DNA of 64,000 bases from a bacterium (lineage in GTDB: Bacteria > SZUA-182 > DTGQ01 > JAFGSM01), in NCBI GenBank assembly GCA_049472355.1, contig JBLIRP010000004.1, positions 1 through 64,000 of the forward strand, in the 5' to 3' direction. Shown here in pieces: positions 9,544 to 43,439 of this stretch (position 1 is its first letter; each line of letters starts with the position of its first letter). Below the pieces are notes generated by a model. The model was not told where the DNA came from, did not search any database, and saw only the letters and a program-made list of their open reading frames with translations. The position numbers and the translations under genes were made by a program.

Positions 9544-10080
9544 ATGCCGCATATATTCTTTGAACCCCTGGAAAAAAGACGGAGCACGCAGACACTCTTT
9601 CCCACGTTCGGCGGCAATACCGCCATAGCCATCTACTCGGCACCGGTGCCCGAATACGGGGTCGGGATCGGATACACCCCGCCCTCAAACAACTACCTCC
9701 TGTACGGGATCAATCCGCCTTCGAGCGGCTATTCACCGTGGTCGGGAGGGGGGCTCTTCGGGTGGTCGAATCCCTTTAACAGCTACAATCCCTGGGGCTC
9801 ATGGGGTTCATCATGGAGCTCCCCCTGGGGCTGGGGCTCATCCTGGAGTTCCCCCTGGGGTTCCGGAAGCTGGTCCTCCCCCTTCGGGGGCTTCTTCGGC
9901 GGTTTCTTCGGGGGACTCTTCGGAGGCTCTTCTCCCTGGTCATGGGGAGGCAGCCCGAGCTTCCCGGACATCCGGCTTCTGTACGGGGTTTTCCCCAATC
10001 CCACCCCTCCCACTGAAATCATCGCCTTTTACGGGGTCGGGATACCGAGTGTGAGTTCATTCTCGGGAACCCTCTGGTAG
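9544..10080 (+). CDS. Gly/Ser/Trp/Pro-rich repetitive protein (178 aa). It is the candidate precursor or substrate of the adjacent radical SAM enzymes.
   Basis: ATG lies 8 nt after the rSAM stop, with a GGGAG SD. High GC3 throughout. The sequence reads MPHIFFEPLEKRRSTQTLFPTFGG...YSPWSGGGLFGWSNPFNSYNPWGSWGSSWSSPWGWGSSWSSPWGSGSWSSPFGGFFGGFFGGLFGGSSPWSWGGSPSF..., with degenerate tandem SSWSSPWG-like repeats at protein and DNA level. There is no obvious Sec signal. The antisense ORF in the same repeats is shorter and non-operonic. Confidence 0.55.
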   Translation: MPHIFFEPLEKRRSTQTLFPTFGGNTAIAIYSAPVPEYGVGIGYTPPSNNYLLYGINPPSSGYSPWSGGGLFGWSNPFNSYNPWGSWGSSWSSPWGWGSSWSSPWGSGSWSSPFGGFFGGFFGGLFGGSSPWSWGGSPSFPDIRLLYGVFPNPTPPTEIIAFYGVGIPSVSSFSGTLW

Positions 10081-19271: not shown

Positions 19272-19385
19272 AAGGATAATACCTCCATGGTCACAGTAAC
19301 CTTATACCTGTTTATCGGAAAATATCCCAAAATCATTTTCTTAAACTGCAAAATACAGACCATGTTATTATGGACACCCAAGGAA

Positions 19386-20369
19386 TCATGCATCGGTTGC
19401 CTGGGCGATCACCCTGATGACCTCTCCGCACCCGCATGCCGCAGAAAAAATGGAGATGAAGAGCGCGGGAACCGCGGCGAAAAACGCCTGAAGAAAGAGG
19501 CCCCACCCCTGCCCGTGCCCTCGCCTCAGTGCCCCCATCCGGTGATTGGCAATGCTCATGTGCTCGAAAAGGGCGTTCCTTCTCACAAAGAGGTTTAAAA
19601 TGCTTTGGAGCGTGGTAAAGGGCCCGTATTCCCACGAGAGGAAATCCCATGAGATGGGTGAAAACCCAGCCTTGTGCAGGGCAAGGCGAACGGTGGAAGG
19701 GGTGTAATGGTGCATATGGTGAAGGGGGTCCCACCCCATCCAGGCGGTCTTGGTCATCCTCGCAGACCAGCTTGCCGCATTGGGGACCTCGATCAGCAGA
19801 TAGCCGCCGGGTCTTACCAGACCCCGGCAACAGCGCAGATAGAGAAGCGGATCAGGCAGATGTTCAAGTACATGCCACATGGTAACGATGTCGAACGAAT
19901 GCCGGCTGAACGACGCATGGGGCAGTTCGCCGATGAAACAATCGATCCCGAAGGTCTTGCGGATAAATGACCCTGCGGTAGCGGAAACCTGGGTCCCCGC
20001 CACCTGCCACCCCCGCTTGTGCAGCTCGTGGATCATGATTCCCCTTCCGCAGCCGACATCCAGGATCGACCCCTTTCTCCCGAGCACCCTCTCCACGTAT
20101 GATGCCCTTTTAATACGGAAAAATCGGCAGACCCGTTCCGCCGATTTGGAAAACCGCTCCCCCGCGGGGGAGTAAAACGAATCCTGATACCTGGCATGAA
20201 TCTGTTCTTTGTCAGGAAGGGGATGCGTGACCATCAGGCCACACCCCCGGCATACCAGGAGCGACGTCCCGAACTCGCGAAAGGTGAAGCGAGGAATGAG
20301 GGAAGACCCTCCGCATAGAGTGCATATCTGATCAGGCACCGCCGTCCTGTTCGTGTCACGGATAGCCAT
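19386..20369 (-). CDS. Class I SAM-dependent methyltransferase
   Basis: Motif I ILDVGCGRG and post-I region. Methyltransf_11/23-like. Has an N-terminal Cys cluster (CTLCGG...CRGCG). Confidence 0.7.
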   Translation of the reverse strand: MAIRDTNRTAVPDQICTLCGGSSLIPRFTFREFGTSLLVCRGCGLMVTHPLPDKEQIHARYQDSFYSPAGERFSKSAERVCRFFRIKRASYVERVLGRKGSILDVGCGRGIMIHELHKRGWQVAGTQVSATAGSFIRKTFGIDCFIGELPHASFSRHSFDIVTMWHVLEHLPDPLLYLRCCRGLVRPGGYLLIEVPNAASWSARMTKTAWMGWDPLHHMHHYTPSTVRLALHKAGFSPISWDFLSWEYGPFTTLQSILNLFVRRNALFEHMSIANHRMGALRRGHGQGWGLFLQAFFAAVPALFISIFSAACGCGEVIRVIAQATDA

Positions 20370-20782
20370 TCATACCAGCCACGGAAAAAACCGCTGTCGA
20401 TTCAGGGGTGAACTATACCATACGCCATTCATGTTGACAACCGCCCCGGACCACCGATCGGGAATTCCAATTGTGAACCTTCAGCCAGGGAGCACAAGCA
20501 GACATAGTTGCTCCGCTCGACACGAAGGGGGGATACGCCTTTAACCAAACATTGTTGGAGCGAAGCGAGGCTGCTCTTTTGTTACGAAAATATCCTGTAT
20601 TCATCTGAAAATATTATATTTTCATCCTTCGTGGCGCCACGAAGCGGCATGAGAGTTTGCTCCTTTCAACGACGGAAATGGCGACTGAAGGCATCCCTAT
20701 ATCGTTCCGTAGCCACGTATGCATGGCAAAAATCAACATTGACGGATCATCGTTGATATCATTGCCGGACCTTGCCAAGGGA

Positions 20783-21571
20783 TCAGGGCCTTGCCAGCTT
20801 CCTGCCGCCGGCGCTGAATATCGGGGTCTGGTAAAGTCCCATCTTCTGTCCGATCACCTGGAACGTGGTTTTTATCACCCCCAGGGCGTAGCGACAGCTC
20901 TTCCAGAAACCGATGGTTGACGCCTCTGCAAAGTAATGGGCCGGACAACTTACCTCCCCGATCCTGAACCCGAAAAAGATGACCTGGCAGAGCATCTGGT
21001 TATCAAAGAGATAATCATCACTGTTTTCAAGGATGGGCAGGGTCTCCAGCACCTCTCTGGTGAATCCCCGGTACCCGGTGTGGTATTCCGAAAGGCCCTG
21101 GGCGAGCACCAGGTTCTGGAAGGTAGTGAGGACACGGTTGGCCACGTACTTGTACCACGGCATTCCGCTCTTGATGGCCCCCCGTCCCAGCATCCGGGAG
21201 CCCTGCACATAGTCGTAGAACCCGGTGCCCAGGAGGTAGGCGATGGCAGGGATGATCCTGGGGGTGTACTGATAATCGGGGTGCACCATGATCACGATGT
21301 CGGCACCGATCTCGATCGCCTTCCTGTAACAGGTCTTCTGGTTCGCCCCGTACCCCATGTTCCGGTCGTGCTGCAACAGGACAAGCTCAAGATCGCGGGC
21401 TATATACAGGGTATCGTCGGAGCTGCAATCATCGGTAAGGATGATCTCGTCAACCAGGGTGCGATCGATCTCGTGGTAGGTCTTCTCAAGGGTCTTGGCC
21501 GCATTGTATGCCGGCATCACCACGATGAGCCGTTTCCCGAGAATCATCTCCCCTGCCCTCTCCCTCTGCAT
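20783..21571 (-). CDS. Family 2 glycosyltransferase (dolichyl-phosphate mannose synthase-like)
   Basis: GT-A fold motifs LIVVMPAYNAAKTL and DDCSSDDT, with a DxD-type acidic pair. Confidence 0.75.
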   Translation of the reverse strand: MQRERAGEMILGKRLIVVMPAYNAAKTLEKTYHEIDRTLVDEIILTDDCSSDDTLYIARDLELVLLQHDRNMGYGANQKTCYRKAIEIGADIVIMVHPDYQYTPRIIPAIAYLLGTGFYDYVQGSRMLGRGAIKSGMPWYKYVANRVLTTFQNLVLAQGLSEYHTGYRGFTREVLETLPILENSDDYLFDNQMLCQVIFFGFRIGEVSCPAHYFAEASTIGFWKSCRYALGVIKTTFQVIGQKMGLYQTPIFSAGGRKLARP

Positions 21572-21791
21572 GCATGGTTTCGATCCATTGCGGGCAAATC
21601 ATCCCCTACTATAGAATCCATGAGGAATCGTTGTCAAATGGCAAGTGATCAATAGGGTTGTTGCCCACAATGTGTTGAGCAGTTACCTCACATGACATCT
21701 TTTCAGGTTCCGCAGCAAGAAAAGCCGAACAATCCGATTCTATTCCGCCTTTAACGGATGCCTAATCGGCCTTGTCGAGCGCCGTTCCGTA

Positions 21792-23024
21792 TTGTCTTAT
21801 CCGGGCGGTAATGATAGATTGGTGCCAAAAGGAGCACGGATGGAGCAGAAAAAACAGGGCATGAAGAATGTGTTCCTGCTGGGTGTGGTGAGTTTTCTCA
21901 ACGACTTGAGCAGCGAAATGATCATGCCCATCCTGCCTTTGTTCATCGCCGCACTCGGCGGCAAGGGGATGGCGGTGGGACTGGTCGGAGGGGTGCGCGA
22001 GGGCGTATCGAGTGTTGTAAAGATAGTGAGCGGATATTTCTCCGACCGGACCGGCCACAGAAAACGGTTTGTAGTTCTCGGATACCTTAACTCGGCCCTG
22101 TTCAAGCTCCTTTTGGGGGCCTCGCGCATATGGCAGCACGTGCTGGTGGTCACGGGTCTGGAGAGGATCGGAAAGGGCCTTCGTACGGCTGCCCGGGATG
22201 CGATCATTGCGGAATCGACCCCCCTGCACAGGGGAAGGGGATTCGGCATCCACCGTGCCTTTGACACCGCCGGGGCCGTAGGGGGCGCCGGGGTAGCACT
22301 TCTTTTGTACTGGCTCTTCAGGCTTGATTTCAGGGCGATCATCGTCGTTGCTGCGATCCTCTCGTTCACCTCCCTCATCCCTCTGATATTCGTGGCCGAG
22401 ACAAGGGGCGTTCCCCAGCGGGTCTCCTTTTCTCTCAGCATTCGCAGCCTCTCCCCCCGGCTCAGGGTCTTTCTTCTCATCGCCGCCATATTCTACCTGG
22501 CAAATCTCAGCTACATGTTCTTCATCCTGCGGGCACAGGAATATTTTTCGGGAATCTATCCTGAAAAGACCGCAAATCTCCTCCCCATCATCCTTTATAT
22601 TGTCTCCAATGCCGTCTATGCAGCAGGGGCCGTTCCGTTCGGCGTTCTCTCCGATAGGGTGGGAAGAAGGCGGGTGCTCGTGTCAGGCTACCTCCTTTTT
22701 TCCATCACCTCACTCGGGTTCGCATTCCTTCAGTCCCTCCCGGCATTCCTCCTGCTCTTTTGCGCATACGGTGTTGTGAACGCCATTGTGGATGCAAACG
22801 AGCGGGCATATATCGCTGACCTGGCGCCGTCCCATCTCAAGGCCACCGCCCTGGGAACCTTCCACGCCACGATCGGGTTGATGAGCGTGATTGAAGGCGC
22901 CGTGGCGGGCGCCCTCTGGGAGTGGATCTCCCCGCAGGCTGCCTTCCTTTACGGTGCTGCGCTGACCGGATGCGCCGCATGGATGTTTCTTCTGTTCGGC
23001 GGATTCCTCGCACGGGCCGAGTAG
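21792..23024 (+). CDS. MFS transporter
   Basis: 12 predicted TM segments with the MFS signature FSDRTGHRKRF between TM2 and TM3. The start is possibly the Met at 21840. Confidence 0.75.
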   Translation: MSYPGGNDRLVPKGARMEQKKQGMKNVFLLGVVSFLNDLSSEMIMPILPLFIAALGGKGMAVGLVGGVREGVSSVVKIVSGYFSDRTGHRKRFVVLGYLNSALFKLLLGASRIWQHVLVVTGLERIGKGLRTAARDAIIAESTPLHRGRGFGIHRAFDTAGAVGGAGVALLLYWLFRLDFRAIIVVAAILSFTSLIPLIFVAETRGVPQRVSFSLSIRSLSPRLRVFLLIAAIFYLANLSYMFFILRAQEYFSGIYPEKTANLLPIILYIVSNAVYAAGAVPFGVLSDRVGRRRVLVSGYLLFSITSLGFAFLQSLPAFLLLFCAYGVVNAIVDANERAYIADLAPSHLKATALGTFHATIGLMSVIEGAVAGALWEWISPQAAFLYGAALTGCAAWMFLLFGGFLARAE

Positions 23025-23545
23025 CAAGCGTGGAAGGACCCAGGCATTATCTGCATCCCTGCAAACAAAGTACATAATGAAATGCAGAAGGTGGCTACCG
23101 AGAAATAGGGTTCGAAATCGTCAGGATCTACGTCACGGATAACGTCTCTTCCCATATGGAGAGGATGATGAACGAAACCTCCGTGTCAATGGACACCTTT
23201 CTTGCAAGTCCGGTCAAGAAAGGATATTCCCCACTGCCCCCCTGATTGCAGCCACCACAACGGCTCCTGTCCGCGCTCACCACATCCTTTTCAGGACATT
23301 CCATCATTTCTCTTGCCATACAATACCTATTGATACCCGCAACTTTCATTATATGGCTTTCTTATGCCATTGCTTTATGAGTCGACAAGACTTGCCGGGT
23401 GCATGTGCGATAACCTTGATCTCCCTTCCCAGGCCCTGGCATCTGCTATTGGTTTTTCGGTTTCCGAAATTTCACTTGAAAATCTCCTTTGGGGCATTTT
23501 CATGCTTCTTTGTGAGCCGAAGTCTCATGTGCGTTTCACTTCTGC

Positions 23546-23584
23546 ATTCTACATTCTACATTCTACATTCTACATTCTACATTC
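23546..23584. repeat. Heptanucleotide microsatellite (ACATTCT)x~5.5
   Basis: Read directly: attctacattctacattctacattctacattctacattc. Confidence 0.9.
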
Positions 23585-23637
23585 GCAGTTTCATCCGGCT
23601 CATGAGCGTTTCATCACATTCTCCATCAGCTTTTCTT

Positions 23638-23982
23638 TCAGGACTTCTCCTGCGCGAGCAATGGTTCCAGAAGAGCGACGAGCGCAGGGAGATCATCCTG
23701 CACGGTACGCCAGAGAATATCCAGGTTGATATCGAAATAGGCATGAACCAGCTTGTGGCGCATGCCGATGATGTCGTCCCAGGGGATATCCTGGAGTTGG
23801 TCCTGCGTGATTTCAGAGATTTGATAGGCAGCCTCGCCGATGATCTCGATATCCTTGACCAGCGACAAAACCAGCATGCGATCGCCGTCCAAGTCGCAAC
23901 GAACCCTGTTCCGTGCAAAACATATGGCCTCATGTGCGGCATCCAACATGTGTCGCAAGCGAACCGCATCATCCTTGTGCAT
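23638..23982 (-). CDS. hepT: HepT-like toxin (DUF86, nucleotidyltransferase substrate-binding family) of a HepT/MNT toxin-antitoxin pair
   Basis: Conserved R(x)4HxY-type motif (MRHKLVHAY) in a ~115-aa protein. Its start overlaps the end of the MNT gene by about 14 nt. Confidence 0.75.
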
Positions 23983-24271
23983 ACTGCAGCTCCGCTTCTT
24001 GCAGGACATCCTGGCGAAAATACCGGCTGAGGTCCTCCGCAGTCCTGAGGTCTACTTTTCGGCCACCGAAGATACCTGAAAGTTCGCGCTCCAATCGAGC
24101 AATGCCGAAAAGCCCTGGCGCATGTTCAGGCTCAAACTCGACCAGAACATCCACGTCGCTATCCGGTCCAAAATCCTCCCGCAGCACCGATCCAAAAAAC
24201 GCCAGACGCCGAATGTGATGCTGCTGACAGAAGGAGGCAAGTTGTTTTTGATCGAAAGATATGTTCACCAT
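23969..24271 (-). CDS. mntA: MNT-type minimal nucleotidyltransferase antitoxin (MntA)
   Basis: GSxxRGxxxxxSDxD motif ([20 protein letters not shown]) in a 100-aa protein. It lies upstream of and overlaps hepT. Confidence 0.8.
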
Positions 24272-24317
24272 CAGTGTGCCTCCATAATCTTGAAACTCTC
24301 TATACTCCAGTCTTCCA

Positions 24318-24539
24318 TGTTTAAAAGCTATCCTCTTGTAATTGAAGGCTTAAAAAGCGGCGAAACAGCTTTTCATGTGCACCCCCGTCATGGGCATGGA
24401 TTAAAGTCAAACATCTCCCTGTCGATGGACCATATGGTCATTTTTTTAGATGATATACAGACGACTATTGAAAGGCAAGGGCTAAGACAATGGAATTATG
24501 AATTCGAGTCCCTTGTGATTCATGATCTCCCTTGAATTC
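24318..24539 (+). CDS. Small hypothetical protein (73 aa)
   Basis: Open frame [29 protein letters not shown]... in the low-GC islet. No recognisable domain. Confidence 0.25.
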
Positions 24540-24548
24540 AACCATTAT

Positions 24549-24578
24549 ACGTTAGACGTTAGTTGCGTTAGGCGTTAG
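24549..24578. repeat. Short tandem repeat (ACGTTAG/GCGTTAG) x4
   Basis: Read directly: acgttagacgttagttgcgttaggcgttag. Confidence 0.8.
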
Positions 24579-24596
24579 GTGGCTCCAGACTTGCTG

Positions 24597-25330
24597 TCAA
24601 TTCTCAAGCCTCCTGATCAGGTTCAGGCAGTGCTCATTTCCTGGATGAAGCTGTATTCCTCTCATGGCAATGTCTCTCGCGCGATCCTCCCTGCTGATGT
24701 TTAGATACAGCCATAATAGGCGGGAGCATTCTGTCGCAGAAAGGTTGGGCAGGTGACGTTCCATTGCGCTCGCCACCTGTTCGATGAGCAGTCGGACTTC
24801 AGGTGACCAGGCATCCTCCAATCGCCGACCCTTAAGCTCACGAATCCTATTGTTTATTCGGTTTGCGAGGGTGCCAATCTCGCTGGCGGTGACGTATGGC
24901 AGGAGGGCAGCCTCGGATAGTGCATGGACCTCTCCAACTACGTCTTCTGTAGAATGGCACAAATCTGCCAGCTTCAACCATGCGCCCCTCCTATCATGCG
25001 CATCTGCGGTCTCGAGGAATCGCCGGAGGTATGTCCTGCAAAGTCTCGAAAGCGAGTGGTGATGAGAACCTTGTTGGGTGGACGGATGTGAGCGTCTATC
25101 CAGTTAAAGACATCGGCTGGATTATCAAGTGTTTCAAAATTATCGAGGACGAACAAGCTCGGTCCAGCCGCGCCATTCGCAAGGCAGCATTGAAAGTAGA
25201 CCTCGGGTTGAAAATTAGGGCTGTATACTTCCGATGGCTCAAGGAGCTTAACTGCTGCTTGTGCGATATCCTCTTCGCGGACGACCCGGGGACAAACAGG
25301 CTTTGGGCCAAATTATAGAAGATCAATGTC
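24597..25330 (-). pseudogene. Probable frameshifted or degraded remnant of a larger NTPase (STAND/NB-ARC-like) protein, split into two or more ORFs
   Basis: Two abutting minus-strand ORFs (24974-25156, then 24597-24977) are separated by a stop/start junction. The upstream fragment reads ...GPSLFVLDNFETLDNPADVFNWIDAHIRPPNKVLITTRFRDF, which resembles the hhhhDD / hhhTTR Walker B-to-sensor region of NB-ARC/NACHT ATPases. The region is low-GC. Confidence 0.3.
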
Positions 25331-25716
25331 TCGGGCATGATCCAAAGAATTACATCATAGGGTGTCGTTCAAGCTCGGCTATCGACTGGATCGCTGCGAT
25401 GGTTTTCATATGCATAGATTGACTATGACAAGATGCCCTTATGGAACCCTCACATCTGGACAGCAGTTATTGAATATGGTATAAATAATATAGAAATTTT
25501 TATGTCATTTTTGTTATCCATCGTTCTTTTTGACCGGTAGTGCGATATACCAGGGTATGTTCGGATAATAAGGGAGTCTTCCTTTTGAAGGATCCGGCAC
25601 ATAACCATTAATTCCGGAATTCATTCTCTTGACGGGGATTTTCATAAAGGGACGAGGCAACACGGGTGCATCGCTTCACCCATTTAGAAAAAGCGCATGG
25701 TAAGGAGGAGTGCATA

Positions 25717-26229
25717 ATGGAGGGTCCAAATCGTTCAATTGACAAATACCTGCGGCAGGCGGCGTGCATAGTGAGCATGCTGCTCATCGTTGCAGTGACA
25801 ACACCGACAATGGCTTCAGCCCAAATCTGGTATGGATACGGCGGTGGCTACCGGCCCACAGGGGGATGGACCCCCATGGGTATGGGTTATAACACCATGG
25901 CGGGTATGCCGAACTATTGGGGTATGGCAGCGCCCGTGTCTTATGGTGCAGGGGGCTGGGCCAGGCAGGGCAGCGGGTACTGGGGAGCGGCATCACCCAC
26001 CTGGGGAACGGGGATAGGTTACGCGGGATTCCAGTCAATGGCGCCCAGATATTATGGCTCCTCAGGACCATACGGCACTGGACCGCAGGCGCAATGGATG
26101 AATACGCCTACCTTCCCGCAGCAGGGGTGGCCCTCGTATGCCGGTTATTCTGCCGGTGGGTGGCAGCAGCCTATTGCCGACATTCCTTCCGGGTGGATAG
26201 GCCCGAACAGTTTCGTGTCAACCGGGTGA
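25717..26229 (+). CDS. Secreted Gly/Trp/Tyr-rich low-complexity protein (signal peptide plus about 140 aa of GW/GY-rich sequence)
   Basis: Strong SD AAGGAGG 8 nt before the ATG at 25717. The signal peptide is MEGPNRSIDKYLRQAACIVSMLLIVAVTTPTMASA|QIW. The mature part reads YGYGGGYRPTGGWTPMGMGY...GGWARQGSGYWGAASPTWGTGIGYAGF... An AT-rich promoter region lies at 25440-25660. Confidence 0.6.
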   Translation: MEGPNRSIDKYLRQAACIVSMLLIVAVTTPTMASAQIWYGYGGGYRPTGGWTPMGMGYNTMAGMPNYWGMAAPVSYGAGGWARQGSGYWGAASPTWGTGIGYAGFQSMAPRYYGSSGPYGTGPQAQWMNTPTFPQQGWPSYAGYSAGGWQQPIADIPSGWIGPNSFVSTG

Positions 26230-26506
26230 GGCTGCTAACAGTTCCGGCGGTCAGCCGGACAACGGTCAAGCGGCTTCAGGAAAATAAAGTCTTCCTTAAC
26301 GATGACGGGGAGAGACGGCGATGTAACGTATCGGGCGCACCGGGATCGGGTACGGCGGGAAGGTTGACAACCTCCGGGACCTATGTTTAAATGAAACGTT
26401 ACGATGGGAGCGCACTGGTGCCGTTTAGGGCACCTTTTTTTTAATTCATTTTTCAAACCCGCCTGCTCGCGCGGATGGATTCGGAGGACGTACTTACGGC
26501 GGCATC

Positions 26507-27721
26507 ATGGATGTGAAAAAACCACGATACGTAGTCATTGTCCCGGATGGCATGGGGGACTATCCGATCCCGGAACTCGGGTGGAAAACCATCCTCCAGA
26601 GTGCACGAACGCCCAATATGGATCTCATCGCCTCCAGGGGATTGATCGGGACCGTTCGCACGGTGCCGTCCGGGTTTCAGGCGGGAAGCGACGTGGCGAA
26701 CCTTTCCGCACTGGGATTCGATCCGGTGATATACTACACCGGACGCGCCCCGCTGGAGGCAGCCAATATCGGGGTTGCGCTTGCCGACGGTGACGTCGCC
26801 TACCGGTGCAACCTGGTGACCCTCGGGGATGGGAGGATGAAGGATTTCAGCGCCCAGCACATTCCCACACCCGAGGCCGCCGCGCTCATCCGGCACATCG
26901 ATGAACACCTGGGAGGCGACCGGGTGCGGTTCTATCCCGGCACCAGCTACCGGCACCTTATGGTATGGTCGGGAGGAGAGGCAGGCCCTGAGTGCACCCC
27001 GCCCCATGATATCTCAGGCAGGGAGTACGCCCCATACCTGCCGAAGGGACCGGGGGCCGATTTTCTGATTGCACTCATGAAGCAGTCGCAGGGGCTTCTT
27101 CAGGGACACGCGGTGAACAGGGAACGTCTGGAGGCGGGGAAATTACCTGCAACGAGCATCTGGCTCTGGGGCCAGGGGACGCGTCCCCACCTTCCGAAGT
27201 TTCATGATACGTACGGCCTGAAGGGCGGGATCATCTCGGCGGTGGACCTCCTGAAGGGGATCGGCATCTACCTGGGGCTCGAGGTGATCACGGTGCCGGG
27301 GGCAACCGGCTATTTTGACACCAACTACGAAGGGAAGGCGGAATACGCACTCAAGGGGCTGGAGCACCTCGATTTCGTGTTCATCCACGTCGAGGCGCCT
27401 GACGAGGCGGGTCATAACGGCGACACCAAGGGGAAGATACAGGCGGTGGAGGACGTGGACCGCCTCATCGTGGGAAGGATACTGGAGGGACTGAAGCGGT
27501 TTCCCCGCCACCACGTCATGGTCCTCCCCGACCACTACACCCCGATCAGCGTGCGGACCCATACCAGCGAGCCGGTGCCCTTCTGCATCTACACCTCGGA
27601 GGGAAGGCAGCAGGGGCAGGGGCAGGCTGCGCAGTTCGACGAGGAAACCGCAGGAAAAAGCGGCCGCTCCTTTTCAAACGGTCAGGAGCTTATGGCCTTC
27701 TTTCTCAAGAAGGATGGGTAG
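26507..27721 (+). CDS. apgM: 2,3-bisphosphoglycerate-independent phosphoglycerate mutase, archaeal type
   Basis: Metal-binding motifs VPDGMGD and HVEAPDEAGHNGD. About 400 aa, typical of the ApgM family. Confidence 0.85.
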   Translation: MDVKKPRYVVIVPDGMGDYPIPELGWKTILQSARTPNMDLIASRGLIGTVRTVPSGFQAGSDVANLSALGFDPVIYYTGRAPLEAANIGVALADGDVAYRCNLVTLGDGRMKDFSAQHIPTPEAAALIRHIDEHLGGDRVRFYPGTSYRHLMVWSGGEAGPECTPPHDISGREYAPYLPKGPGADFLIALMKQSQGLLQGHAVNRERLEAGKLPATSIWLWGQGTRPHLPKFHDTYGLKGGIISAVDLLKGIGIYLGLEVITVPGATGYFDTNYEGKAEYALKGLEHLDFVFIHVEAPDEAGHNGDTKGKIQAVEDVDRLIVGRILEGLKRFPRHHVMVLPDHYTPISVRTHTSEPVPFCIYTSEGRQQGQGQAAQFDEETAGKSGRSFSNGQELMAFFLKKDG

Positions 27722-33692: not shown

Positions 33693-34076
33693 GGCGCAGC
33701 GTAAGCGAAGGCTCAAACCAAGCTTGCCAGGGCGGAGCGCAGCGGAGCCACTATGCTCCCCTTCCAATCCACCAAAAGGCCTTGCGACAACACCTTTAAA
33801 AAGCTTGCCAGGGCGGAGCGCAGCGGAGCCACTATGCTCCCCTTTCCATTCTCCCAAAAGGCCCGCAACTCCGCCTTTAAAAAGCTCCTCAGGCCTGGCG
33901 CAGCAAAGCTAATCGATCTCTTCCTATCACACAAAGGCAGCGTCTGGAATATCTACCTTTCCTTTGGGATCACAATCGCAATCACATCAGGCAGGCTGGC
34001 GAATATCTGCCCTGTCAACAGCGGGATTCGTAGAGCCATTGATAAATAATATGTAATTGATTATATTTGTAATATA
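33674..34076. repeat. Composite repeat element, copy 1. Partial unit overlaps the dxs stop, then two tandem ~82-bp units, a spacer, and a ~170-bp conserved module ending in a sigma70-like promoter.
   Basis: Units: aagcttgccagggcggagcgcagcggagccactatgctccccttccaatccaccaaaaggccttgcgacaacacctttaaaa, present twice. The module 33930-34076 is about 85-90% identical to 41090-41246. Confidence 0.85.
34040..34068 (+). promoter_or_regulatory. Near-consensus sigma70 promoter TTGATA-17nt-TATATT at the 3' end of the repeat module. It faces the hypothetical ORF and giant-protein gene.
   Basis: The -35 TTGATA is at 34040-34045 and the -10 TATATT at 34063-34068, with exactly 17-nt spacing. The identical promoter is found at 41207-41235. 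Confidence 0.5.
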
Positions 34077-34126
34077 CCTGAGATTGCTTCGGCTCTCGCC
34101 GTGCGCTTTGCTCGGGGCTTCTGCTA

Positions 34127-34236
34127 CACCGCCATGATCTTCTGATCACAACGAAGCATGAACGTTTTTAGAAACAAGTGATTATTTGAAAACCTTCACA
34201 TAAACCGCCATGATCTAGCGATCACAACGAAGGATG
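34127..34236. repeat. Two 34-bp direct repeats (ACCGCCATGATCTnnnGATCACAACGAAGnATGA) separated by 76 bp
   Basis: Copies are at 34127-34160 and 34203-34236. Each contains an internal TGATC...GATCA inverted repeat. Confidence 0.7.
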
Positions 34237-34359
34237 AAAATAAATAAAACAAAGGGCTGTTAAATTATTTTCTTATAAACGCAATGGCATCTTGGGGACC
34301 CCGTATCGAGTCGTCAAGGGCACCATTATAGAAAAAAATTACTGAATCGGAAAAGATAA

Positions 34360-34767
34360 ATGCCCTGGAGCAGGCGAAACGATTGCGAAATCCCTCTTTC
34401 TCGGACAGTTGCCGAAACCGAGGTTGAATGTTACGAAAAAGATGGATTACAGGAGAGGATAGATCTTTTAGGATATAGACACCGGAATCTCATTACGATT
34501 TTTGATGGTAAGATGTCGAATGTCATTGATTTCACAAACATAGTTGATCCGACCTGTTTTGATAGGCGTGACCCTGGTGGAACTGCATCACGTGCTTATT
34601 TACTGCGAAGTCAAAAAAACTGTTTATCCTCTTCCGGGGATTCCATTTTTTGCAGGGTGTTTGGGCGCTTATACCGTGGCGACCGAGGAATCTCTTCAGA
34701 AGAGACAATTTTTTCAATGACTCTCCATAGATCTGCCAGTAACAATTTTATTCCTTCCTTGCTTTAG
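34360..34767 (+). CDS. Hypothetical protein (135 aa)
   Basis: ORF between the promoter module and the giant gene. No recognisable domain and lower GC than neighbours. Confidence 0.25.
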   Translation: MPWSRRNDCEIPLSRTVAETEVECYEKDGLQERIDLLGYRHRNLITIFDGKMSNVIDFTNIVDPTCFDRRDPGGTASRAYLLRSQKNCLSSSGDSIFCRVFGRLYRGDRGISSEETIFSMTLHRSASNNFIPSLL

Positions 34768-34802
34768 CTTTTCCTTGTTTTAACAAAGTTAAGGGGGCAT
34801 AT

Positions 34803-37800
34803 ATGGCTTCAAAAAACCGTCATAAAAAAATCAGTTTCATAACCTTGGCAGGCTCGATTCTTCTTCTGTTTTTCTGGGTAAATACTTCCCGGGCGCAAAC
34901 GGCTGCCGAATACATTGCACAGGGGAGGGCGCATCTCTCACAGCATACGATGGAAGGTCTCATGAATGCCCATTCGAAATTTCAGGCAGCACTGGTGATT
35001 GAACCCAATAATCCAGAGGCCAATTTTTTCTTTTCGCTCACTCGCCTGCCTGCACTTTTGGATAATTCCGCATCATATACCGATGGTTTTCCCATTGAAA
35101 ATGCCAAGGAACTCTTGGATGGTCTTGATGTGGATGCGGAAGGGAGGGACCTCTTTGAATGGGAAGCCAAATTCACTGAAGACGGCAGCGGGGATGTCCT
35201 TTTGCCTTCTGATTCCCCCACAGGTGATGTAGTTCAGGATTTTTTAACATCTGTCATCATGTCCGAGATTGAAGGGGTACTTACCGATCTCACCAATTTG
35301 GATGCGACATTTACTACCGTGTTGACCGCTTCGGAGACCGGAGAGGAACAAGATATTGAGATCGATTATGGGGATATCCTTTTGTACCGATCCCTACTGA
35401 ATGTCGCCAAGATGGGGCTCTCTTTCATATCCGCCTACGACATGGATGTGGATATCGATACCTTAGTGAATATGAACAGCGAGCTTTTTGATGTGGACGA
35501 GGATCTTCTCGATGTTTATCCGAACCTGTTGACACTGCTCTTGGATGGCGACGATCTCATGGCTGATGCAGGGAATGCCCTGCTCTCGGCCATTGATGCC
35601 TTTGATGAGGCCTCTTTGTTCATTCAGGAGACAGAAACGGACAACCAGGAGGACGATCTTGTCACCCCTGATGAAATAGCCGGAGGTGGTGATTTCAAAT
35701 GCAAACCAATAGTGGAACAGATCAAAGGCTCCCTGGTGAACAAGGAGCCTGCAGACCTTTCGCGCATTGAGGAAACCTGGGAATTGACGGATGATCATGG
35801 AAATACCATCCTTATGAGAATAGAAAAAGACCATGCCGGCAATTTCCTGGGCGGGGACTTTCACGGCATCGATGGTTGCAGTTTTCTGGCCTGCCGCGGA
35901 TGGGTTGAAGACTTCTCAATGGTGGACTCAAATATAGTCATCACCACTGCATGCGGGGGCGGGTGTCCTTGCTCAGCCATACTCGAAGGTCGGATGAACG
36001 AAGATGGGACGCGAATCATTTCAGGGACGTATCTGTCGCAGGATTGTCTCGAAACTGTATCCGGGACCTTTACCGGACTAAGGACCGAATATGAAGAGAC
36101 TCCTATGAGGATTGATGTGAGCGAGTTCTTTGACGACCCCATCAGCATCCGGGATTATCTGCCTGGGCTTACCCATGATCCATACACACGTGAGATCATG
36201 CTGGCAAAAAGTCTTATGGAGTCTTTCCCGGACCGGACCCTGTCGGGCATCTTTCCTGACGGATTGCCGGTCGAAGGATTCGGGCTCGATCTGGTCACGA
36301 TCCGAGGGGGAAGCGCATCCGGGGGGTCTTCTTACGGCGTTGCTTCATGCCTTGTGTGGGGCCTTGCCCCCTGGGATATCGAGTCCCTCACCATTTATGG
36401 TCCTCTGGGTTTGCAGTATGAATTTGATCTGGAAAAGGACACCATGGTGTTTTACAAATACGGGATGATGTATAACGTTAGTGCTCCTTCCTATCCGCCT
36501 GAAGGGTGGTATGAATTTGTTTTGATCGACAAACAGGGTCGAAGCGTATCTGCAGGCAGATATTTCACCCCCAATCCCATCGATGTGGTGGATATAGCAA
36601 CAGGCGAATCTCCCGCAGACAAGGCCTATGTAAACACCCTGACGCCTGCCTTGAACTGGTCGCCTGTGACGGATGAACGGATTGATACGCTATATTACAG
36701 GGTGAATATCATGGACTGGAATGGGAAGGTCAATGTCTATTCATCCGACAGGGTTGCAGGCACGACAATAACGGTGCCGGCGGGTATCCTGATGCCCAAC
36801 GAGGTCTATCAATGGAATGTTCGGGTATTTGACAGCGCGAACGGCACCAGTGCGAATAATTTTTCTTCCAGTGATTGGAAGGTCTTTTGCACAGGCGGTG
36901 AAAACGATCCGCTGAATATCGAATTGGCCTTTGTTCATAGCAGGGTGGAGCCAGATGATATGCATGACATGACCCTTTTTGCCATCGATATAGACGGGCC
37001 TGCACCCTATGATATCGGCTCCCTGGCAGTGTCAGGCCCGGGAGGATTCTCGCATACCTTCGACCCCATCGATGATTACCATTCCGATATCTACCTGCAC
37101 CACGAAGACGGTATCCTTACGGACGGGACCTATACCTTTACTATTGTGGATGATCGAGACGGCAACACACTGTCTGTTGACCGGGATTTTACTTTCAATC
37201 GCCTGCCCGTCCCTGAAGAGCTGCATACCCCATCCTTTGAGTCATATGTCCGGACGACCACGCCAACCTTCAGCTGGAGCAGGGCACATGACGAGACGGT
37301 GGATCCCCTCTCCTATCGGGTGATGATCTATGATTATAATCATAACATTATTTACAAATCTCCTCGCTCCCCGGAGACATCCGCAACGGTTCCCCCGGAT
37401 TGCTTGAAAATCCATAACCCCTATTTCTGGCGCGTTCAGGTGTTTGATGGGACCTCCACGATTCAAAACAGCGCGGTTACGAATATGATGCCCTTTTATG
37501 TTGTAGCGGACAATCCACCTTCGATCATTTCAGGACAGATTGAGACAGGGATGAGCGGTTATACGGGCGGCGATATCTTCGTCTGCGTGTTCGATCAGGC
37601 CCTGCAACCTCTTGCATCTCCCCTCTTCTGTGTCACCCTTTCCGATATAGGTTCGTATACCCTGTATGACCCGCCTACCAATACGGATCTTTATATCTAT
37701 GCCCTCTGGGACAAGGACGGGAGTGATTGTTACACAGCCGGTGACTGGGCGGGGATATACGCTGAAAATCCGGTTGTGCTCGACGACGGCGGTATTTTTA

Positions 37801-40784: not shown

Positions 40785-40953
40785 TCTGATAAGAAATTTA
40801 ATTGTAGTCGGTGCCCAAATGGTGCCCATCGTTATGGAAAAATCGAAAACATGTAAAATCCCGAAAGGTTCATTAAGAGGGATTCTCGGCGAAAAATTAA
40901 TAAGTTCATGCCATTAAACAGATTATCCTCGACGAGTTAAGCGAACCAAAGCC

Positions 40954-41258
40954 TCAAACCAAACTTTGTTAGGGCGGAGCGTAAGCGGAGCCTCTATGCT
41001 CCCCTTCCAATCCACCAAAAGACCCTGCGATTACGCGTTTTAAAAAACTCTGTTAGGCCGAAGCGTAAGCGAAGCCACCAGACCTCTTCCTGACACACAA
41101 GGGCAGCGTTTGGCAGTACCTTCCTTCCCTTTGGGACCGACAATCGCAACCAAAACAGGCAGGCTGGTGAATGTCCGCTCTGTCAACAGCGGGATTCACT
41201 CAGCCATTGATAAATAATATGTAATTGATTATATTTGTAATATATATGCATAGGGTTT
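40954..41258. repeat. Composite repeat element, copy 2. It begins with a 24-nt duplicate of the dxs 3' end (ctcaaaccaaactttgttagggcg), then a degenerate unit and the conserved ~170-bp promoter module.
   Basis: 40954-40977 is identical to 33674-33697. 41090-41246 is about 85-90% identical to 33930-34076, including the TTGATA-17-TATATT promoter at 41207-41235. Confidence 0.85.
41207..41235 (+). promoter_or_regulatory. Second copy of the TTGATA-17nt-TATATT promoter, about 90 nt upstream of the 619-aa secreted protein gene
   Basis: Identical -35/-10/spacer to the copy at 34040-34068. Confidence 0.5.
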
Positions 41259-41323
41259 TCTCATGATTCTCCAAATTTGATGGGCCTCACTACATGATTT
41301 CGACAAGGTCATAATTGTGACAG

Positions 41324-43183
41324 GTGGACGCAATGATGCAAAGGGCAAGATGTCTATGCATCCTGACGGTCTTTATCGTGCTGCTTACCTTGATGACAGG
41401 TATGGCCGGGGCGAAGACGGGGACCGAGCACCCATTCCTTTTGGACGTTCCCGCCTCCTATAACCTGCCGTTGTGGATGTATTCCTGGAATCCCTCTTTG
41501 GCCTGGAAGGGCATGGCCGGGGCGAAGATAGAGATCCAATATCCAGTCCCTTTGGACATTCCCGGCTCTTATACATCATCGATAGGGATGCCTTTATGGA
41601 ATACACCCTTAGGCCGGATCGGGAATGGCCCTGCCGATCACCTCAGTCATGCCTATTATGCATGGTTGTATCCATCAACCCTCAATTATATTCCCCTGTG
41701 GTCCCATCCATGGTTCTATTCCTCTTCCCCATCCCAAAAAGCGGCAAAACCGTTCCACCCTGTTTTTGAGAACCTGAGTCTTTTCAAAATGGGCCCTCTC
41801 TATGCCCAAATCGATGAGCCCTACCGATATCTGTTCATCGCTGATTATACATATCATACATCCGAGAGCATAGAGTTGTACTTTATGGATGGTGATCAGC
41901 TCTCATGTACCAGTATTTTTGATCTCTTGCTTCATCCCGTAGAATTCCTCCTCTTTGTCAACGACCCCAATGATCCGAATGATCCGGTGGCGAAATACTG
42001 GATGGATCTCGGGGCGGACCCGGCCCTGTTTGGTGAAAACGATCCGCATATGGCTGCCCTTTTCGGCAGGGCATCGTTCAAGGTCGATCTCGACCTGCCC
42101 ATCTTTGCTGACCCGAATCTAAGGTTCGGTGGTCATTTGGCGGAGAGGATCATCGAACAGGGCCATATGGGGTGGAAGGTAACCGTGAATGGAGCTGTTC
42201 AGGGGCAGCCCCTGCAGATCAATCCGCTCCCGGTGGACCCCTATGATGGTATGCCCACCTATCTGCCGGCAAACTATACCGCGGTCAAGACGATAGATGC
42301 CTATGCCAAGCCATTCTATCGTATGGACGTTGTGTTCGTTCTGGAGGGCGCGCTGTGGAACTCCGGTGTGTCGGTCTGGCCGAATGTGGCTGCACTGGAT
42401 TACACGCCGCAGGATTTTGAAGACCTGATGGTGACCATCGAGGTGACCAACGGAATAGATTCGGAGGTCAGCATCTTTCCCATCACCGTACTTGATTACC
42501 CTGTGGAAAATTATGATCCTGTGCCGGCATCCGATGAGGTCGAACTGACAGTATATGTGGGAGAATCGTTTCGTTATGCTCTTTGGTGCATCGACCCGGA
42601 TTGTTTCATCTTCTCACAGGCTTACAATCTGTATGGAGAGGTCCCTGACACCACGCATGTGCCTTGGAATGCCCCGGGCATGGCATTCAGGACTGACATG
42701 TCCTCCCTGGAATGGGACATTCCGGGGGACTACTCCATCAGCAACTTCAATCCATCCTCGGGGCTCATCTCATGGGTCCCGGTGCGTGAAGGGATTCATA
42801 CTATGGTCGTGACCTGTTCGGACAACCATGGCGGTACCGCCGACATCGAATTGAAAATCTCCACTGAATGCCGCGGAGGCCCCTGCAATAATCCGCCCAT
42901 CATCACAGGCGCTCCCACACAAATCCTGACAATCATTGCCGGACAGGAGTTCGTCCTGGGTCCACCCGATTTCTCAGTGGAAGATCCGGATTACGATGAG
43001 ATCTACGCATCCTGCAATGTCGGTTCCTGCGAGAGGGATGGGGATGGCAACTTTGTGTGGAAATTTCAGAGCGACTTCCCAGGCTCTTATATGGTTGAGA
43101 TCATCTTCCACGATATCAGAGGGGGACATGCAATAATGGAATTCTTTGTGGACGTGCAACCATGGTGGGTGAATCCTTCATGA
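41324..43183 (+). CDS. Secreted hypothetical protein (619 aa) with an N-terminal signal peptide. The likely start is ATG 41333.
   Basis: MMQRARCLCILTVFIVLLTLMTGMAGA signal. There is an internal duplication (MAGAKTGTEHPFLLDVPASYNLPLWMYSWNPSLAW / MAGAKIEIQYPVPLDIPGSYTSSIGMPLWNTPLG). C-terminal beta-rich Ig-like regions. No catalytic motif recognised. Confidence 0.6.
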   Translation: MDAMMQRARCLCILTVFIVLLTLMTGMAGAKTGTEHPFLLDVPASYNLPLWMYSWNPSLAWKGMAGAKIEIQYPVPLDIPGSYTSSIGMPLWNTPLGRIGNGPADHLSHAYYAWLYPSTLNYIPLWSHPWFYSSSPSQKAAKPFHPVFENLSLFKMGPLYAQIDEPYRYLFIADYTYHTSESIELYFMDGDQLSCTSIFDLLLHPVEFLLFVNDPNDPNDPVAKYWMDLGADPALFGENDPHMAALFGRASFKVDLDLPIFADPNLRFGGHLAERIIEQGHMGWKVTVNGAVQGQPLQINPLPVDPYDGMPTYLPANYTAVKTIDAYAKPFYRMDVVFVLEGALWNSGVSVWPNVAALDYTPQDFEDLMVTIEVTNGIDSEVSIFPITVLDYPVENYDPVPASDEVELTVYVGESFRYALWCIDPDCFIFSQAYNLYGEVPDTTHVPWNAPGMAFRTDMSSLEWDIPGDYSISNFNPSSGLISWVPVREGIHTMVVTCSDNHGGTADIELKISTECRGGPCNNPPIITGAPTQILTIIAGQEFVLGPPDFSVEDPDYDEIYASCNVGSCERDGDGNFVWKFQSDFPGSYMVEIIFHDIRGGHAIMEFFVDVQPWWVNPS

Positions 43184-43439
43184 TACCCTTGCGGGAGAAT
43201 TCAGGCGCGCGGTCACGGAGATGCTCAATGAGGAAGCGCTCGCCCAGGCCACATCCAGGTCTTCCATATGGATATCCCGGACAACTCTTGCCCGGCGGGC
43301 TCACAGGAGAAGATCCGGGGCATCTGTAGTCTCAGCCCAAAGGGCATCACCCCCGGTTCTGCTGACGCGTGATTATTTTATCCTGACGCCCCCTCGAATC
43401 AAAAATTGAAATCCTGTCATTGCGGAGGAAGCAACCCGG

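What the first reader, a model, noticed from the sequence alone, without database searches (positions are those of the whole stretch)
25717..26229. Second Gly/Trp/Tyr-rich low-complexity protein, this one with a Sec signal peptide and strong expression signals
This is a ~170-aa secreted protein made of GW/GY/GxG repeats: YGYGGGYRPTGGWTPMGMGY...GGWARQGSGYWGAASPTWGTGIGY. It lies 15 kb from the GSW-rich rSAM-associated protein. The composition resembles that protein (G, W, S, P, Y, F), but this one clearly has a signal peptide, a consensus SD and a long AT-rich upstream region. It could be a second substrate of the Trp-targeting enzymes, or an abundant matrix or cell-surface glycine-rich protein.
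Basis: partly seen in the sequence, partly recalled or inferred. Interest (0 to 1): 0.5.

Follow-up and report, generated by a model that had tools for sequence, protein, structure and literature searches.

The report
Orphan secreted glycine/tryptophan-rich disordered protein
This is a real, apparently unannotated gene for a small exported, almost uncharged glycine/tryptophan/tyrosine-rich protein with no detectable fold or relatives outside one narrow uncultured lineage; it is most likely a self-sticking envelope or matrix protein, and nothing links it to the radical-SAM cluster 15 kb away.

Summary
The ORF 25717..26229 (+) is real. It encodes 170 aa, has a 7-base Shine-Dalgarno 8 nt upstream and a Sec/SPase-I-type signal peptide. 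The mature part is 135 aa: G 23%, P 10%, Y 10%, W 7%, with only 4 charged residues. Four orthologs exist (66-81% identity). Only this frame is open in all of them, and dN/dS is 0.24-0.50. Nine of ten Trp are invariant, and aromatic residues are spaced more evenly than chance. It is compositionally biased, not a true repeat. AlphaFold2 predicts only the signal helix. The family is an orphan: no Pfam, NCBIfam or PDB hit, and one cluster among 1.84 billion representatives.

The rSAM link is not supported. The target lacks the leader conserved in the GSW family, has no sequence similarity to it, and is separated from it by housekeeping genes. Of the two genus-level sibling genomes that keep rSAM genes of that block, neither has the target at this position. 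One carries a non-homologous, nearly Trp-free Gly/Tyr/Met-rich secreted protein at the same position upstream of apgM. The other has nothing there.

My best reading is a strongly expressed, fast-evolving, self-associating periplasmic or surface structural protein. That function is inferred, not shown. Interest is modest.

The parts
25457..25485 (+). Inferred sigma-70-type promoter: TGGACA (25457-62), 17-nt spacer, extended -10 TGG-TATAAA (25477-85). The predicted transcription start is near 25492.
   Evidence: Read directly from the sequence. It is conserved in L001 and L068. Homology among orthologous loci begins just upstream, at about 25398. The consensus scanner missed it because it requires T at position 6 of the -10 hexamer. 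No transcription start has been mapped.
25492..25716 (+). Long conserved non-coding leader (about 225 nt). It contains an invariant block at 25625-25653 and an invariant small hairpin GGGTG/CACCC at 25664-25681.
   Evidence: The conserved upstream stretch that contains this leader (measured over 25398-25716 and 25498-25716) is 96% identical to L001, against 88% for the CDS, while dS is 0.29. Indels of 1, 4 and 7 nt among orthologs show it is non-coding on both strands. There is no Rfam hit, no excess folding energy (z 0.06) and no convincing covariation.
25702..25708 (+). Shine-Dalgarno AAGGAGG, 8 nt before the ATG.
   Evidence: It is invariant in all four orthologs.
25717..25821 (+). Signal peptide (codons 1-35), with predicted SPase I cleavage after A-S-A.
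   Evidence: The n/h/c architecture is visible in the sequence. Small residues at -3/-1 are kept in all orthologs. AF2 models a helix at 5-38 with pLDDT 60-82.
25822..26229 (+). Mature Gly/Pro/Tyr/Trp-rich, nearly uncharged low-complexity protein (135 aa, 14.2 kDa, pI about 8.9), plus the stop codon.
   Evidence: pLDDT is below 40 with no secondary structure. Nine of ten Trp are invariant, against 53% of all positions (Fisher P 0.019). The aromatic spacing CV is 0.52 against 0.84 in shuffles (P 0.0024).
26244..26258 (+). Stem-loop immediately after the stop codon (CCGGC-GGTCA-GCCGG), without a T-run. It is a probable 3' mRNA-stabilising or terminating hairpin.
   Evidence: It is present in all four orthologs. 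L068 and L002 carry a compensatory C:G to T:A change in the stem.

Best explanation
The gene encodes a Sec-exported protein that signal peptidase I probably cleaves. The mature part is an intrinsically disordered 14-kDa protein built from Gly, Pro, Ser, Ala, Gln and Thr 'spacers' and evenly distributed Trp and Tyr 'stickers', with almost no charge.

In this diderm organism the protein is delivered to the periplasm or cell surface. There it most likely self-associates through aromatic contacts, or coats or binds another envelope component, as a structural or matrix protein.

It appears to be transcribed as its own unit. That unit runs from a near-consensus extended -10 promoter, through a conserved leader of about 225 nt and an optimal SD, to a hairpin after the stop codon. 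This argues for high, possibly regulated, expression.

It belongs to a fast-turning-over class of secreted low-complexity proteins that occupy the slot just upstream of the apgM-lysC-cimA operon in this lineage. It is not part of the rSAM/GSW peptide system.

Shown: a real gene under purifying selection; the signal-peptide architecture; the composition and patterning; orphan status; the positional analogue; the lack of linkage to the rSAM cluster.

Inferred: cleavage, disorder, the promoter and transcription start, high expression, and the self-association or structural role.
For: Real gene. Four orthologs have only this frame open. dN/dS is 0.24-0.50, against 0.12 for apgM at a similar dS.

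Export. The signal-peptide features are conserved, and AF2 predicts a helix at 5-38. The window also holds an OMP beta-barrel-like gene and an SLT/LysM gene, and siblings hold LpoB, so the cell is diderm.

Disorder and low complexity. pLDDT is below 40 for residues 30-170. There are 4 charged residues in 135.

Functional constraint on aromatics. Nine of ten Trp and nine of thirteen Tyr of the mature part are invariant, against 53% overall. Aromatic spacing is more even than in shuffles (P 0.0024). Trp shows an 11-residue periodicity.

Expression signals. The SD ties for strongest in the window. The AT-rich region contains TGGACA-N17-TGGTATAAA, conserved in orthologs. The 5' region is 96% identical where synonymous sites have diverged by 0.29. 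The 3' hairpin shows a compensatory change.

Class behaviour. Sibling A has, at the same position, a 251-aa Sec-signal protein. Its mature part is G 28%, A 13%, Y 12%, M 11%, N 8%, with zero charged residues, and it has no detectable homology to the target.

Precedent. Small Sec-exported repetitive structural proteins form the periplasmic sulfur-globule envelope and are described as keratin-like or plant-cell-wall-like (PMC10386293).
Against: There is no experimental or expression data. The AF2 low confidence may simply reflect a 3-sequence alignment. No accessory genes for assembly or secretion lie beside it. The family is confined to four close sequences. It evolves 3-4 times faster than its neighbours (66% identity against 89-94% in L068). 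Together these fit a dispensable gene as well as a structural one. The promoter is only a consensus match. Low-complexity composition alone does not identify a function.
Confidence: 0.45

Rival explanations
1. It is a second substrate of the nearby rSAM/SPASM enzymes. These would modify its Trp residues in the cytoplasm before Sec export, as anaerobic sulfatase-maturing enzymes modify sulfatases before export.
For: It is Trp/Gly-rich like the GSW protein and lies in the same 64-kb window. Trp residues are almost invariant. From general knowledge, rSAM/SPASM enzymes acting on proteins that are later exported have precedent (anSME, QhpD).
Against: It lacks the conserved GSW-family leader and shows no similarity to that family. 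It lies 15.6 kb away, across housekeeping genes. The GSW genes always abut the 368-aa rSAM. Sibling A has rSAM plus two GSW genes on the same contig, but its counterpart at this position is nearly Trp-free and non-homologous. Sibling B, which keeps rSAM genes of the block, has no gene there. The GSW family is spread more widely than the target family.
Confidence: 0.04
2. It is a periplasmic metal-handling protein (for example for Cu(I)) that uses Met and aromatic side chains as ligands.
For: Residues 53-70 form a Met-rich stretch (PMGMGYNTMAGMPNYWGM) in which M61, M64 and M70 are invariant. The positional analogue in sibling A is 11% Met. From general knowledge, Met-rich periplasmic segments and Met/Trp Cu(I) sites are known in CopA/PcoA and CusF.
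Against: The mature part has no His or Cys and only one Asp. No cop, cus or other metal-resistance genes are nearby. It matches no metal-binding family. Met is only 5% of the target.
Confidence: 0.08
3. It is a Sec-dependent glycine-rich antagonistic protein, such as a bacteriocin-like toxin, or another strain-variable interaction factor.
For: It is small, secreted, Gly-rich and fast-evolving. It shows presence, absence or replacement among close relatives and sits at the edge of a variable island. Upstream flanks differ in the window, L001 and L068, and L068 has HepT/MNT toxin-antitoxin genes there.
Against: No immunity or export gene lies beside it. The 278-nt stretch between it and apgM contains no conserved ORF. 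It is uncharged rather than cationic or amphipathic and has no predicted structure. It matches no bacteriocin family.
Confidence: 0.08
4. It is a young, largely dispensable orphan gene with no important function, kept mainly by chance in one species group.
For: Only four close sequences are known. Its dN/dS is higher than that of its neighbours. It is absent or replaced in sibling genera. It is absent from the protein collection that holds the neighbouring protein of the same NCBI MAG, so apparently it was not annotated.
Against: dN/dS is clearly below 1 and the frame is intact in all four orthologs. Trp residues are preferentially conserved. The promoter, leader and SD are more conserved than synonymous sites.
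Confidence: 0.15

Closest known systems
Sulfur globule envelope proteins SgpA/SgpB/SgpC (Allochromatium vinosum and other sulfur oxidisers)
   Same: They are small (11-13 kDa precursors) and made with a cleavable Sec signal peptide. [quoted passage not shown] Their number and sequence vary between species.
   Different: I could not test sequence similarity because no Sgp sequence or model was available. No sulfur-oxidation genes are seen in the 64-kb window. The lineage is a different, unclassified bacterium whose nearest apgM matches are only 55% identical (Nitrospirota and Syntrophaceae MAGs). The target is Trp-rich, which the paper does not report for Sgp.
Aromatic-rich prion-like / low-complexity 'sticker-spacer' domains and glycine-rich structural proteins (FUS/hnRNPA1-type LC domains, plant GRPs); named from general knowledge
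   Same: The composition is Gly/Ser/Gln/Tyr-type with very low charge. Aromatic residues are spaced evenly, and the protein is predicted to be disordered.
   Different: Those proteins are eukaryotic and mostly intracellular, or sit in plant cell walls. The resemblance is in composition and patterning only. The target is exported by Sec, is rich in Trp and Pro, and no self-association has been shown.
GSW-rich rSAM/SPASM-associated peptides of the same window (9544..10080) and their family (P0003-P0017)
   Same: Both are Gly/Trp/Pro-rich low-complexity proteins of about 170-220 aa in the same genome region.
   Different: The GSW family has a conserved cytoplasmic-type leader and a conserved C-terminus. 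It always lies beside the rSAM/SPASM gene and is often present as a tandem pair. The target has a signal peptide, a different composition (A, Y, Q, M instead of S, F), no similarity and a different distribution.
Secreted functional amyloid subunits (curli CsgA, Fap)
   Same: They are Sec-exported, Gly/Gln/Asn/Ser/Tyr-rich self-assembling matrix proteins.
   Different: The target matches no Curlin or other Pfam repeat and has no imperfect sequence repeats. No nucleator or secretion genes lie beside it.

Membership tests
RiPP-type substrate of the local rSAM/SPASM system (GSW family) | Conserved N-terminal leader shared by family members (MSHIFFERLEKRQSTQ...) | tested here: not met
   The target N-terminus is a Sec signal peptide. 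BLASTP against the GSW protein gives E 0.1 over 15 aa. Family sequences are listed.
RiPP-type substrate of the local rSAM/SPASM system (GSW family) | Gene lies directly beside the maturase gene | tested here: not met
   GSW genes abut the 368-aa rSAM in the window, L058-L060 and L062-L063, and the partial locus L061 shows the same order. The target is 15.6 kb away, across about ten unrelated genes.
RiPP-type substrate of the local rSAM/SPASM system (GSW family) | Co-occurrence with the maturase across genomes | tested here: not met
   Sibling A has rSAM plus two GSW genes on the same contig, but a non-homologous protein at the target's position. Sibling B keeps the 301-aa and 436-aa rSAM genes but has no gene between SLT and apgM. 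Only syntenic positions could be checked, not whole genomes.
Sulfur globule proteins (Sgp) | Cleavable Sec signal peptide and small mature size | tested here: met
   The signal-peptide architecture is conserved. The mature part is 14.2 kDa.
Sulfur globule proteins (Sgp) | Sequence homology to SgpA/B/C/D | not testable with these tools
   No Sgp sequence or named model was available. No Pfam or NCBIfam family matched, even at E up to 10.
Sulfur globule proteins (Sgp) | Host forms periplasmic sulfur globules or carries sulfur-oxidation genes | not testable with these tools
   None are seen in the 64-kb window. The rest of the genome was not available.
Curli / functional amyloid subunits | Curlin-type imperfect repeats and neighbouring csg/fap assembly genes | tested here: not met
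   No Pfam hit at E up to 10. No tandem repeats. The neighbours are apgM, lysC and cimA on one side and pseudogene-like ORFs on the other.
Glycine-zipper / YMGG / WxxGxW-type small envelope proteins (Pfam families recalled from memory) | Match to the Pfam models | tested here: not met
   Zero Pfam families at E up to 10 for all four orthologs.

The most novel reading that the evidence does not exclude
An uncultured bacterial lineage keeps, at a fixed slot upstream of the apgM operon, a rapidly replaced class of Sec-exported, charge-free, aromatic/Gly-rich 'sticker-spacer' proteins. The window clade has a W/Y/P-rich version and a sibling genus has a Y/M/N-rich version. Selection in these proteins would act on composition and aromatic patterning rather than on sequence. 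They would form a periplasmic or extracellular condensate, film or amyloid-like coat, a bacterial extracytoplasmic counterpart of prion-like low-complexity domains.
Probability: 0.2. Interest if true: 0.55.

Novelty: new variant of a known kind. Interest (0 to 1): 0.3.

Why it matters
If the structural or self-associating reading is right, this would be a compact, highly expressed bacterial example of an exported aromatic 'sticker-spacer' protein. A natural pair of compositional analogues at one locus would then be useful for asking how low-complexity proteins evolve and assemble outside the cytoplasm. Practically, the result removes a tempting but unsupported link to the neighbouring rSAM peptide system. 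It also flags a gene that the public annotation of the source MAG apparently missed. As it stands it is an orphan with no demonstrated function in an uncultured organism, so its immediate impact is limited.

Tried and rejected
Family and structure searches all came back empty:
- Pfam and NCBIfam at E up to 10 on all orthologs.
- A PDB profile search at E up to 10.
- A full HMM search of 1.84 billion cluster representatives, which found only the protein's own cluster.
- Scans with patterns taken from the target (two peptide-pattern scans and one exact 25-mer from the 5' region): GTDB species representatives and JGI metagenomes. These missed the JGI ortholog later found through its neighbour apgM, so pattern scans are not exhaustive.

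No conserved RNA was found in the 5' region. There was no Rfam hit, no excess folding energy and no covariation.

Antisense small ORFs in the 5' region are not real genes. They are disrupted by 1-, 4- and 7-nt indels among orthologs.

The 55 apgM loci from GTDB representatives are 41-55% identical to the window's apgM and carry no Gly/aromatic-rich gene nearby.

Homology between the target and the sibling-A analogue was rejected. BLASTP gives E 8 and hhalign a probability of 0.8%. An uncorrected tblastn hit (E 4e-5) is a composition artefact.

I skipped a fold search because the AF2 model is uninformative.

Literature searches for the sample accessions and for secreted Gly/Trp-rich bacterial proteins found nothing relevant.

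A lipoprotein reading was rejected. The only Cys (C17) lies before the hydrophobic core and has no lipobox. A Tat signal was rejected because there is no twin arginine.

Full report
**1. Observation**

The + strand holds an ORF whose longest form starts at GTG 25666. A perfect AAGGAGG (25702-25708) sits 8 nt before ATG 25717, and that start gives 170 aa ending at the stop 26227-26229. Gene callers on three other assemblies chose the same ATG.

The N-terminus reads MEGPNRSIDKYLRQ-AACIVSMLLIVAVTT-PTMASA|Q. This is the n/h/c layout of a type I Sec signal peptide. All four orthologs keep small residues at -3/-1. AlphaFold2 models residues 5-38 as the only helix. There is no lipobox and no twin arginine.

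The mature 135 residues (14.2 kDa, pI about 8.9) are G 23%, P 10.4%, Y 9.6%, A 9.6%, S 8.1%, W 7.4%, Q and T 6.7% each, and M 5.2%. They contain three Arg and one Asp, and no Lys, Glu, His, Leu or Cys.

The SD ties for strongest among 33 genes in the window. GC falls to 0.30-0.33 at 25400-25550. So the description is correct, with one correction: the protein is not made of repeats. TRF finds nothing, and the direct repeats are short and weak. What exists is compositional bias and a cryptic periodicity. Trp 127, 138, 149 and 160 are exactly 11 residues apart (P about 0.012 by shuffling).

**2. It is a real gene**

Two homologs came from the word-indexed search: P0001 at 81% and P0002 at 74-75%. 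A fourth ortholog was found by walking from the neighbouring apgM gene: L068:1311-1823 in JGI metagenome 3300005832, 66% identical.

Only the annotated frame is open in all four. Pairwise dN/dS is 0.24-0.50. For comparison, apgM gives 0.12 at a similar dS (0.45-0.49). The gene is therefore constrained but evolves fast. In L068 the five flanking housekeeping proteins are 89-94% identical while this protein is 66-67% identical.

The constraint falls on the aromatics. Nine of ten Trp are invariant, against 53% of all mature positions (Fisher P 0.019). Aromatic residues are spaced more evenly than in shuffled sequences (CV 0.52 against 0.84, P 0.0024).

**3. Orphan status**

No Pfam, NCBIfam or PDB match appears, even at E up to 10. 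A full HMMER search of 1.84 billion cluster representatives returned only the family's own cluster.

Pattern scans of the GTDB species genomes and the JGI contigs found nothing. One JGI ortholog does exist, so those scans are not exhaustive.

The window's apgM is 100% identical, over the aligned region, to an NCBI MAG protein labelled only 'bacterium' (MGA1794458.1, 84,977-bp contig). The target protein itself is absent from the protein collection, so it was apparently never annotated. The nearest apgM among GTDB species representatives is only 55% identical (Nitrospirota and Syntrophaceae MAGs), so the host lineage is poorly sampled.

AlphaFold2 gives pLDDT below 40 and no secondary structure for residues 30-170. 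This is consistent with disorder, though the alignment had only three sequences.

**4. The transcription unit**

Homology among the orthologous loci starts abruptly near 25398. Upstream of that point the window, L001 and L068 carry unrelated sequence: pseudogene-like ORFs, AT-rich DNA, and HepT/MNT toxin-antitoxin genes respectively.

The conserved 5' region is 96% identical between the window and L001, while the CDS is 88% identical and dS is 0.29. It is therefore under strong constraint. Indels of 1, 4 and 7 nt show that it is non-coding on both strands.

It contains TGGACA (25457-62), a 17-nt spacer and TGG-TATAAA (25477-85). This is a near-consensus extended -10 promoter, conserved in L001 and L068. 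It implies a leader of about 225 nt. That is an inference; no transcription start is known.

I found no Rfam family, no excess folding energy and no convincing covariation in the leader. There are only an invariant block (25625-25653) and an invariant small hairpin (25664-25681).

Directly after the stop codon lies a hairpin (26244-26258). It is kept in all four orthologs, with a compensatory C:G to T:A change.

**5. Genomic context and the key comparison**

Downstream lies the housekeeping operon apgM (26507-27721), then aspartate kinase, a LeuA/CimA-type synthase, polyprenyl synthase and DXS.

Two genus-level siblings, with proteins 63-87% identical to the window's, keep the order SLT/LysM then apgM operon. 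Both also keep the 301-aa and 436-aa rSAM genes, the cytochrome gene and asd.

- **Sibling B** (GCA_049472335.1, L066) has only a 460-bp AT-rich spacer between SLT and apgM, and no gene there.
- **Sibling A** (ENA TANS21-1 scaffolds, L064/L065) has a 251-aa protein there. It has a Sec-type signal peptide, and its mature part is G 28%, A 13%, Y 12%, M 11%, N 8%, with no charged residue. Its only Trp are two at the extreme C-terminus. It is not detectably homologous to the target: BLASTP E 8 and hhalign probability 0.8%.

So this slot holds interchangeable secreted, uncharged Gly/aromatic-rich proteins. They either diverged beyond recognition or were replaced.

None of the 55 apgM loci from GTDB representatives carries such a gene. 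In the window itself, a 7.2-kb variable segment separates SLT from apgM. It holds a methyltransferase, GT2, MFS, pseudogene-like ORFs and then the target.

**6. The rSAM hypothesis**

The GSW-rich gene (9544..10080) belongs to a family of at least 15 clusters, down to 33% identity. Its members have a conserved leader (MSHIFFERLEKRQSTQ...) and a conserved C-terminus. They lie directly after a 368-aa rSAM/SPASM gene and often occur as tandem pairs.

The target shares none of these features. It has a signal peptide instead of the leader and no significant similarity. Its composition differs, and it lies 15.6 kb away, across unrelated genes.

The scaffold of sibling A that carries rSAM plus two GSW genes has the nearly Trp-free analogue at the target's position. 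Sibling B has nothing there.

The situation is the reverse: the cluster is more widespread than the target. This argues equally for independence. A cytoplasmic rSAM acting before Sec export has precedent (general knowledge: anSME, QhpD), so I leave about 4% for this reading.

**7. Most likely function**

The protein is exported, disordered and charge-free, with evenly spaced, selectively conserved Trp and Tyr. It has strong and conserved expression signals, and a compositional analogue sits at the same locus. This best fits a self-associating or coating structural protein of the periplasm or cell surface.

The nearest bacterial precedent in kind is the sulfur-globule envelope proteins. These are small, Sec-exported, repetitive and 'keratin/plant cell-wall-like' (PMC10386293). 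I could not test homology to them, and the window shows no sulfur-oxidation genes.

In composition and patterning the protein also resembles eukaryotic aromatic-rich low-complexity domains (general knowledge).

The rivals are a Met/aromatic metal-binding protein, a Sec-dependent antagonistic factor, a dispensable young orphan, and an rSAM substrate. They are listed with their evidence in the Rival explanations section.

**8. Verdict**

The rSAM interpretation is not supported, and the 'glycine-rich matrix or surface protein' alternative is plausible but unproven. This is a new, very narrow family within a known general kind of protein. Interest is modest (0.3).

Noticed in passing
window 26364-26442 (also L001, L068, and L064:9847-9926): A promoter-like TTGACA-N17-TTAAAT is followed about 25 nt later by a GC-rich hairpin (GGTGCCGTTTAGGGCACC) and a T8 run, just upstream of the apgM-lysC-cimA operon. 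It is conserved even in sibling A, where the preceding gene is different. It could be a very short leader or attenuator, or a tiny RNA for this amino-acid-biosynthesis operon. Rfam gives no hit.
   Followed up: partly
L064:8762-9517 = L065:500-1255 (ENA TANS21-1 scaffolds): This is a 251-aa Sec-signal protein. Its mature part is G 28%, A 13%, Y 12%, M 11%, N 8%, with zero charged residues, a run of ten Gly and GNAYMYQG-type Q/N-rich repeats. It occupies the same slot upstream of apgM as the target. One gene caller truncated it to 217 aa without the signal peptide.
   Followed up: partly
window 9544-10080 and L058-L063: The GSW-rich protein family has a strongly conserved N-terminal leader (MSHIFFERLEKRQSTQSLLP...) and C-terminus (YYGVAVPEYAVGIPY). 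It always follows a 368-aa rSAM/SPASM gene. It is duplicated in tandem in sibling genomes and in NCBI MAG GCA_016934595.1, but is single in the window.
   Followed up: partly
window ~34000-43400: A lower-GC segment (0.42-0.52) encodes a 1993-aa signal-peptide protein (only an Ig-like Rha78A_N hit) and a 619-aa signal-peptide protein with no Pfam match. It lies between dxs and the OMP/DUF1425/TPR genes. The segment is absent from the otherwise syntenic L068 and L064/L065, so it looks like a strain-specific insertion.
   Followed up: partly
window 19300-25400: A variable island lies between the SLT/LysM gene and the target's promoter. It holds a methyltransferase, a GT2 glycosyltransferase, an MFS transporter, and then about 2 kb of lower-GC sequence with only short ORFs that match no family. 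Two of these on the minus strand (24597-25156) look like fragments of a degraded NTPase gene. Sibling genomes lack the island.
   Followed up: partly
window 25717-26229: The protein collection holds the neighbouring apgM protein of the same NCBI MAG (MGA1794458.1). It holds neither the exact 170-aa product nor any near-identical sequence, so the public annotation of that MAG apparently did not call this gene.
   Followed up: partly
L068:77-664: A HepT/MNT (HEPN/nucleotidyltransferase) toxin-antitoxin pair lies immediately upstream of the target ortholog in the JGI contig. The window has different sequence at that place.
   Followed up: no
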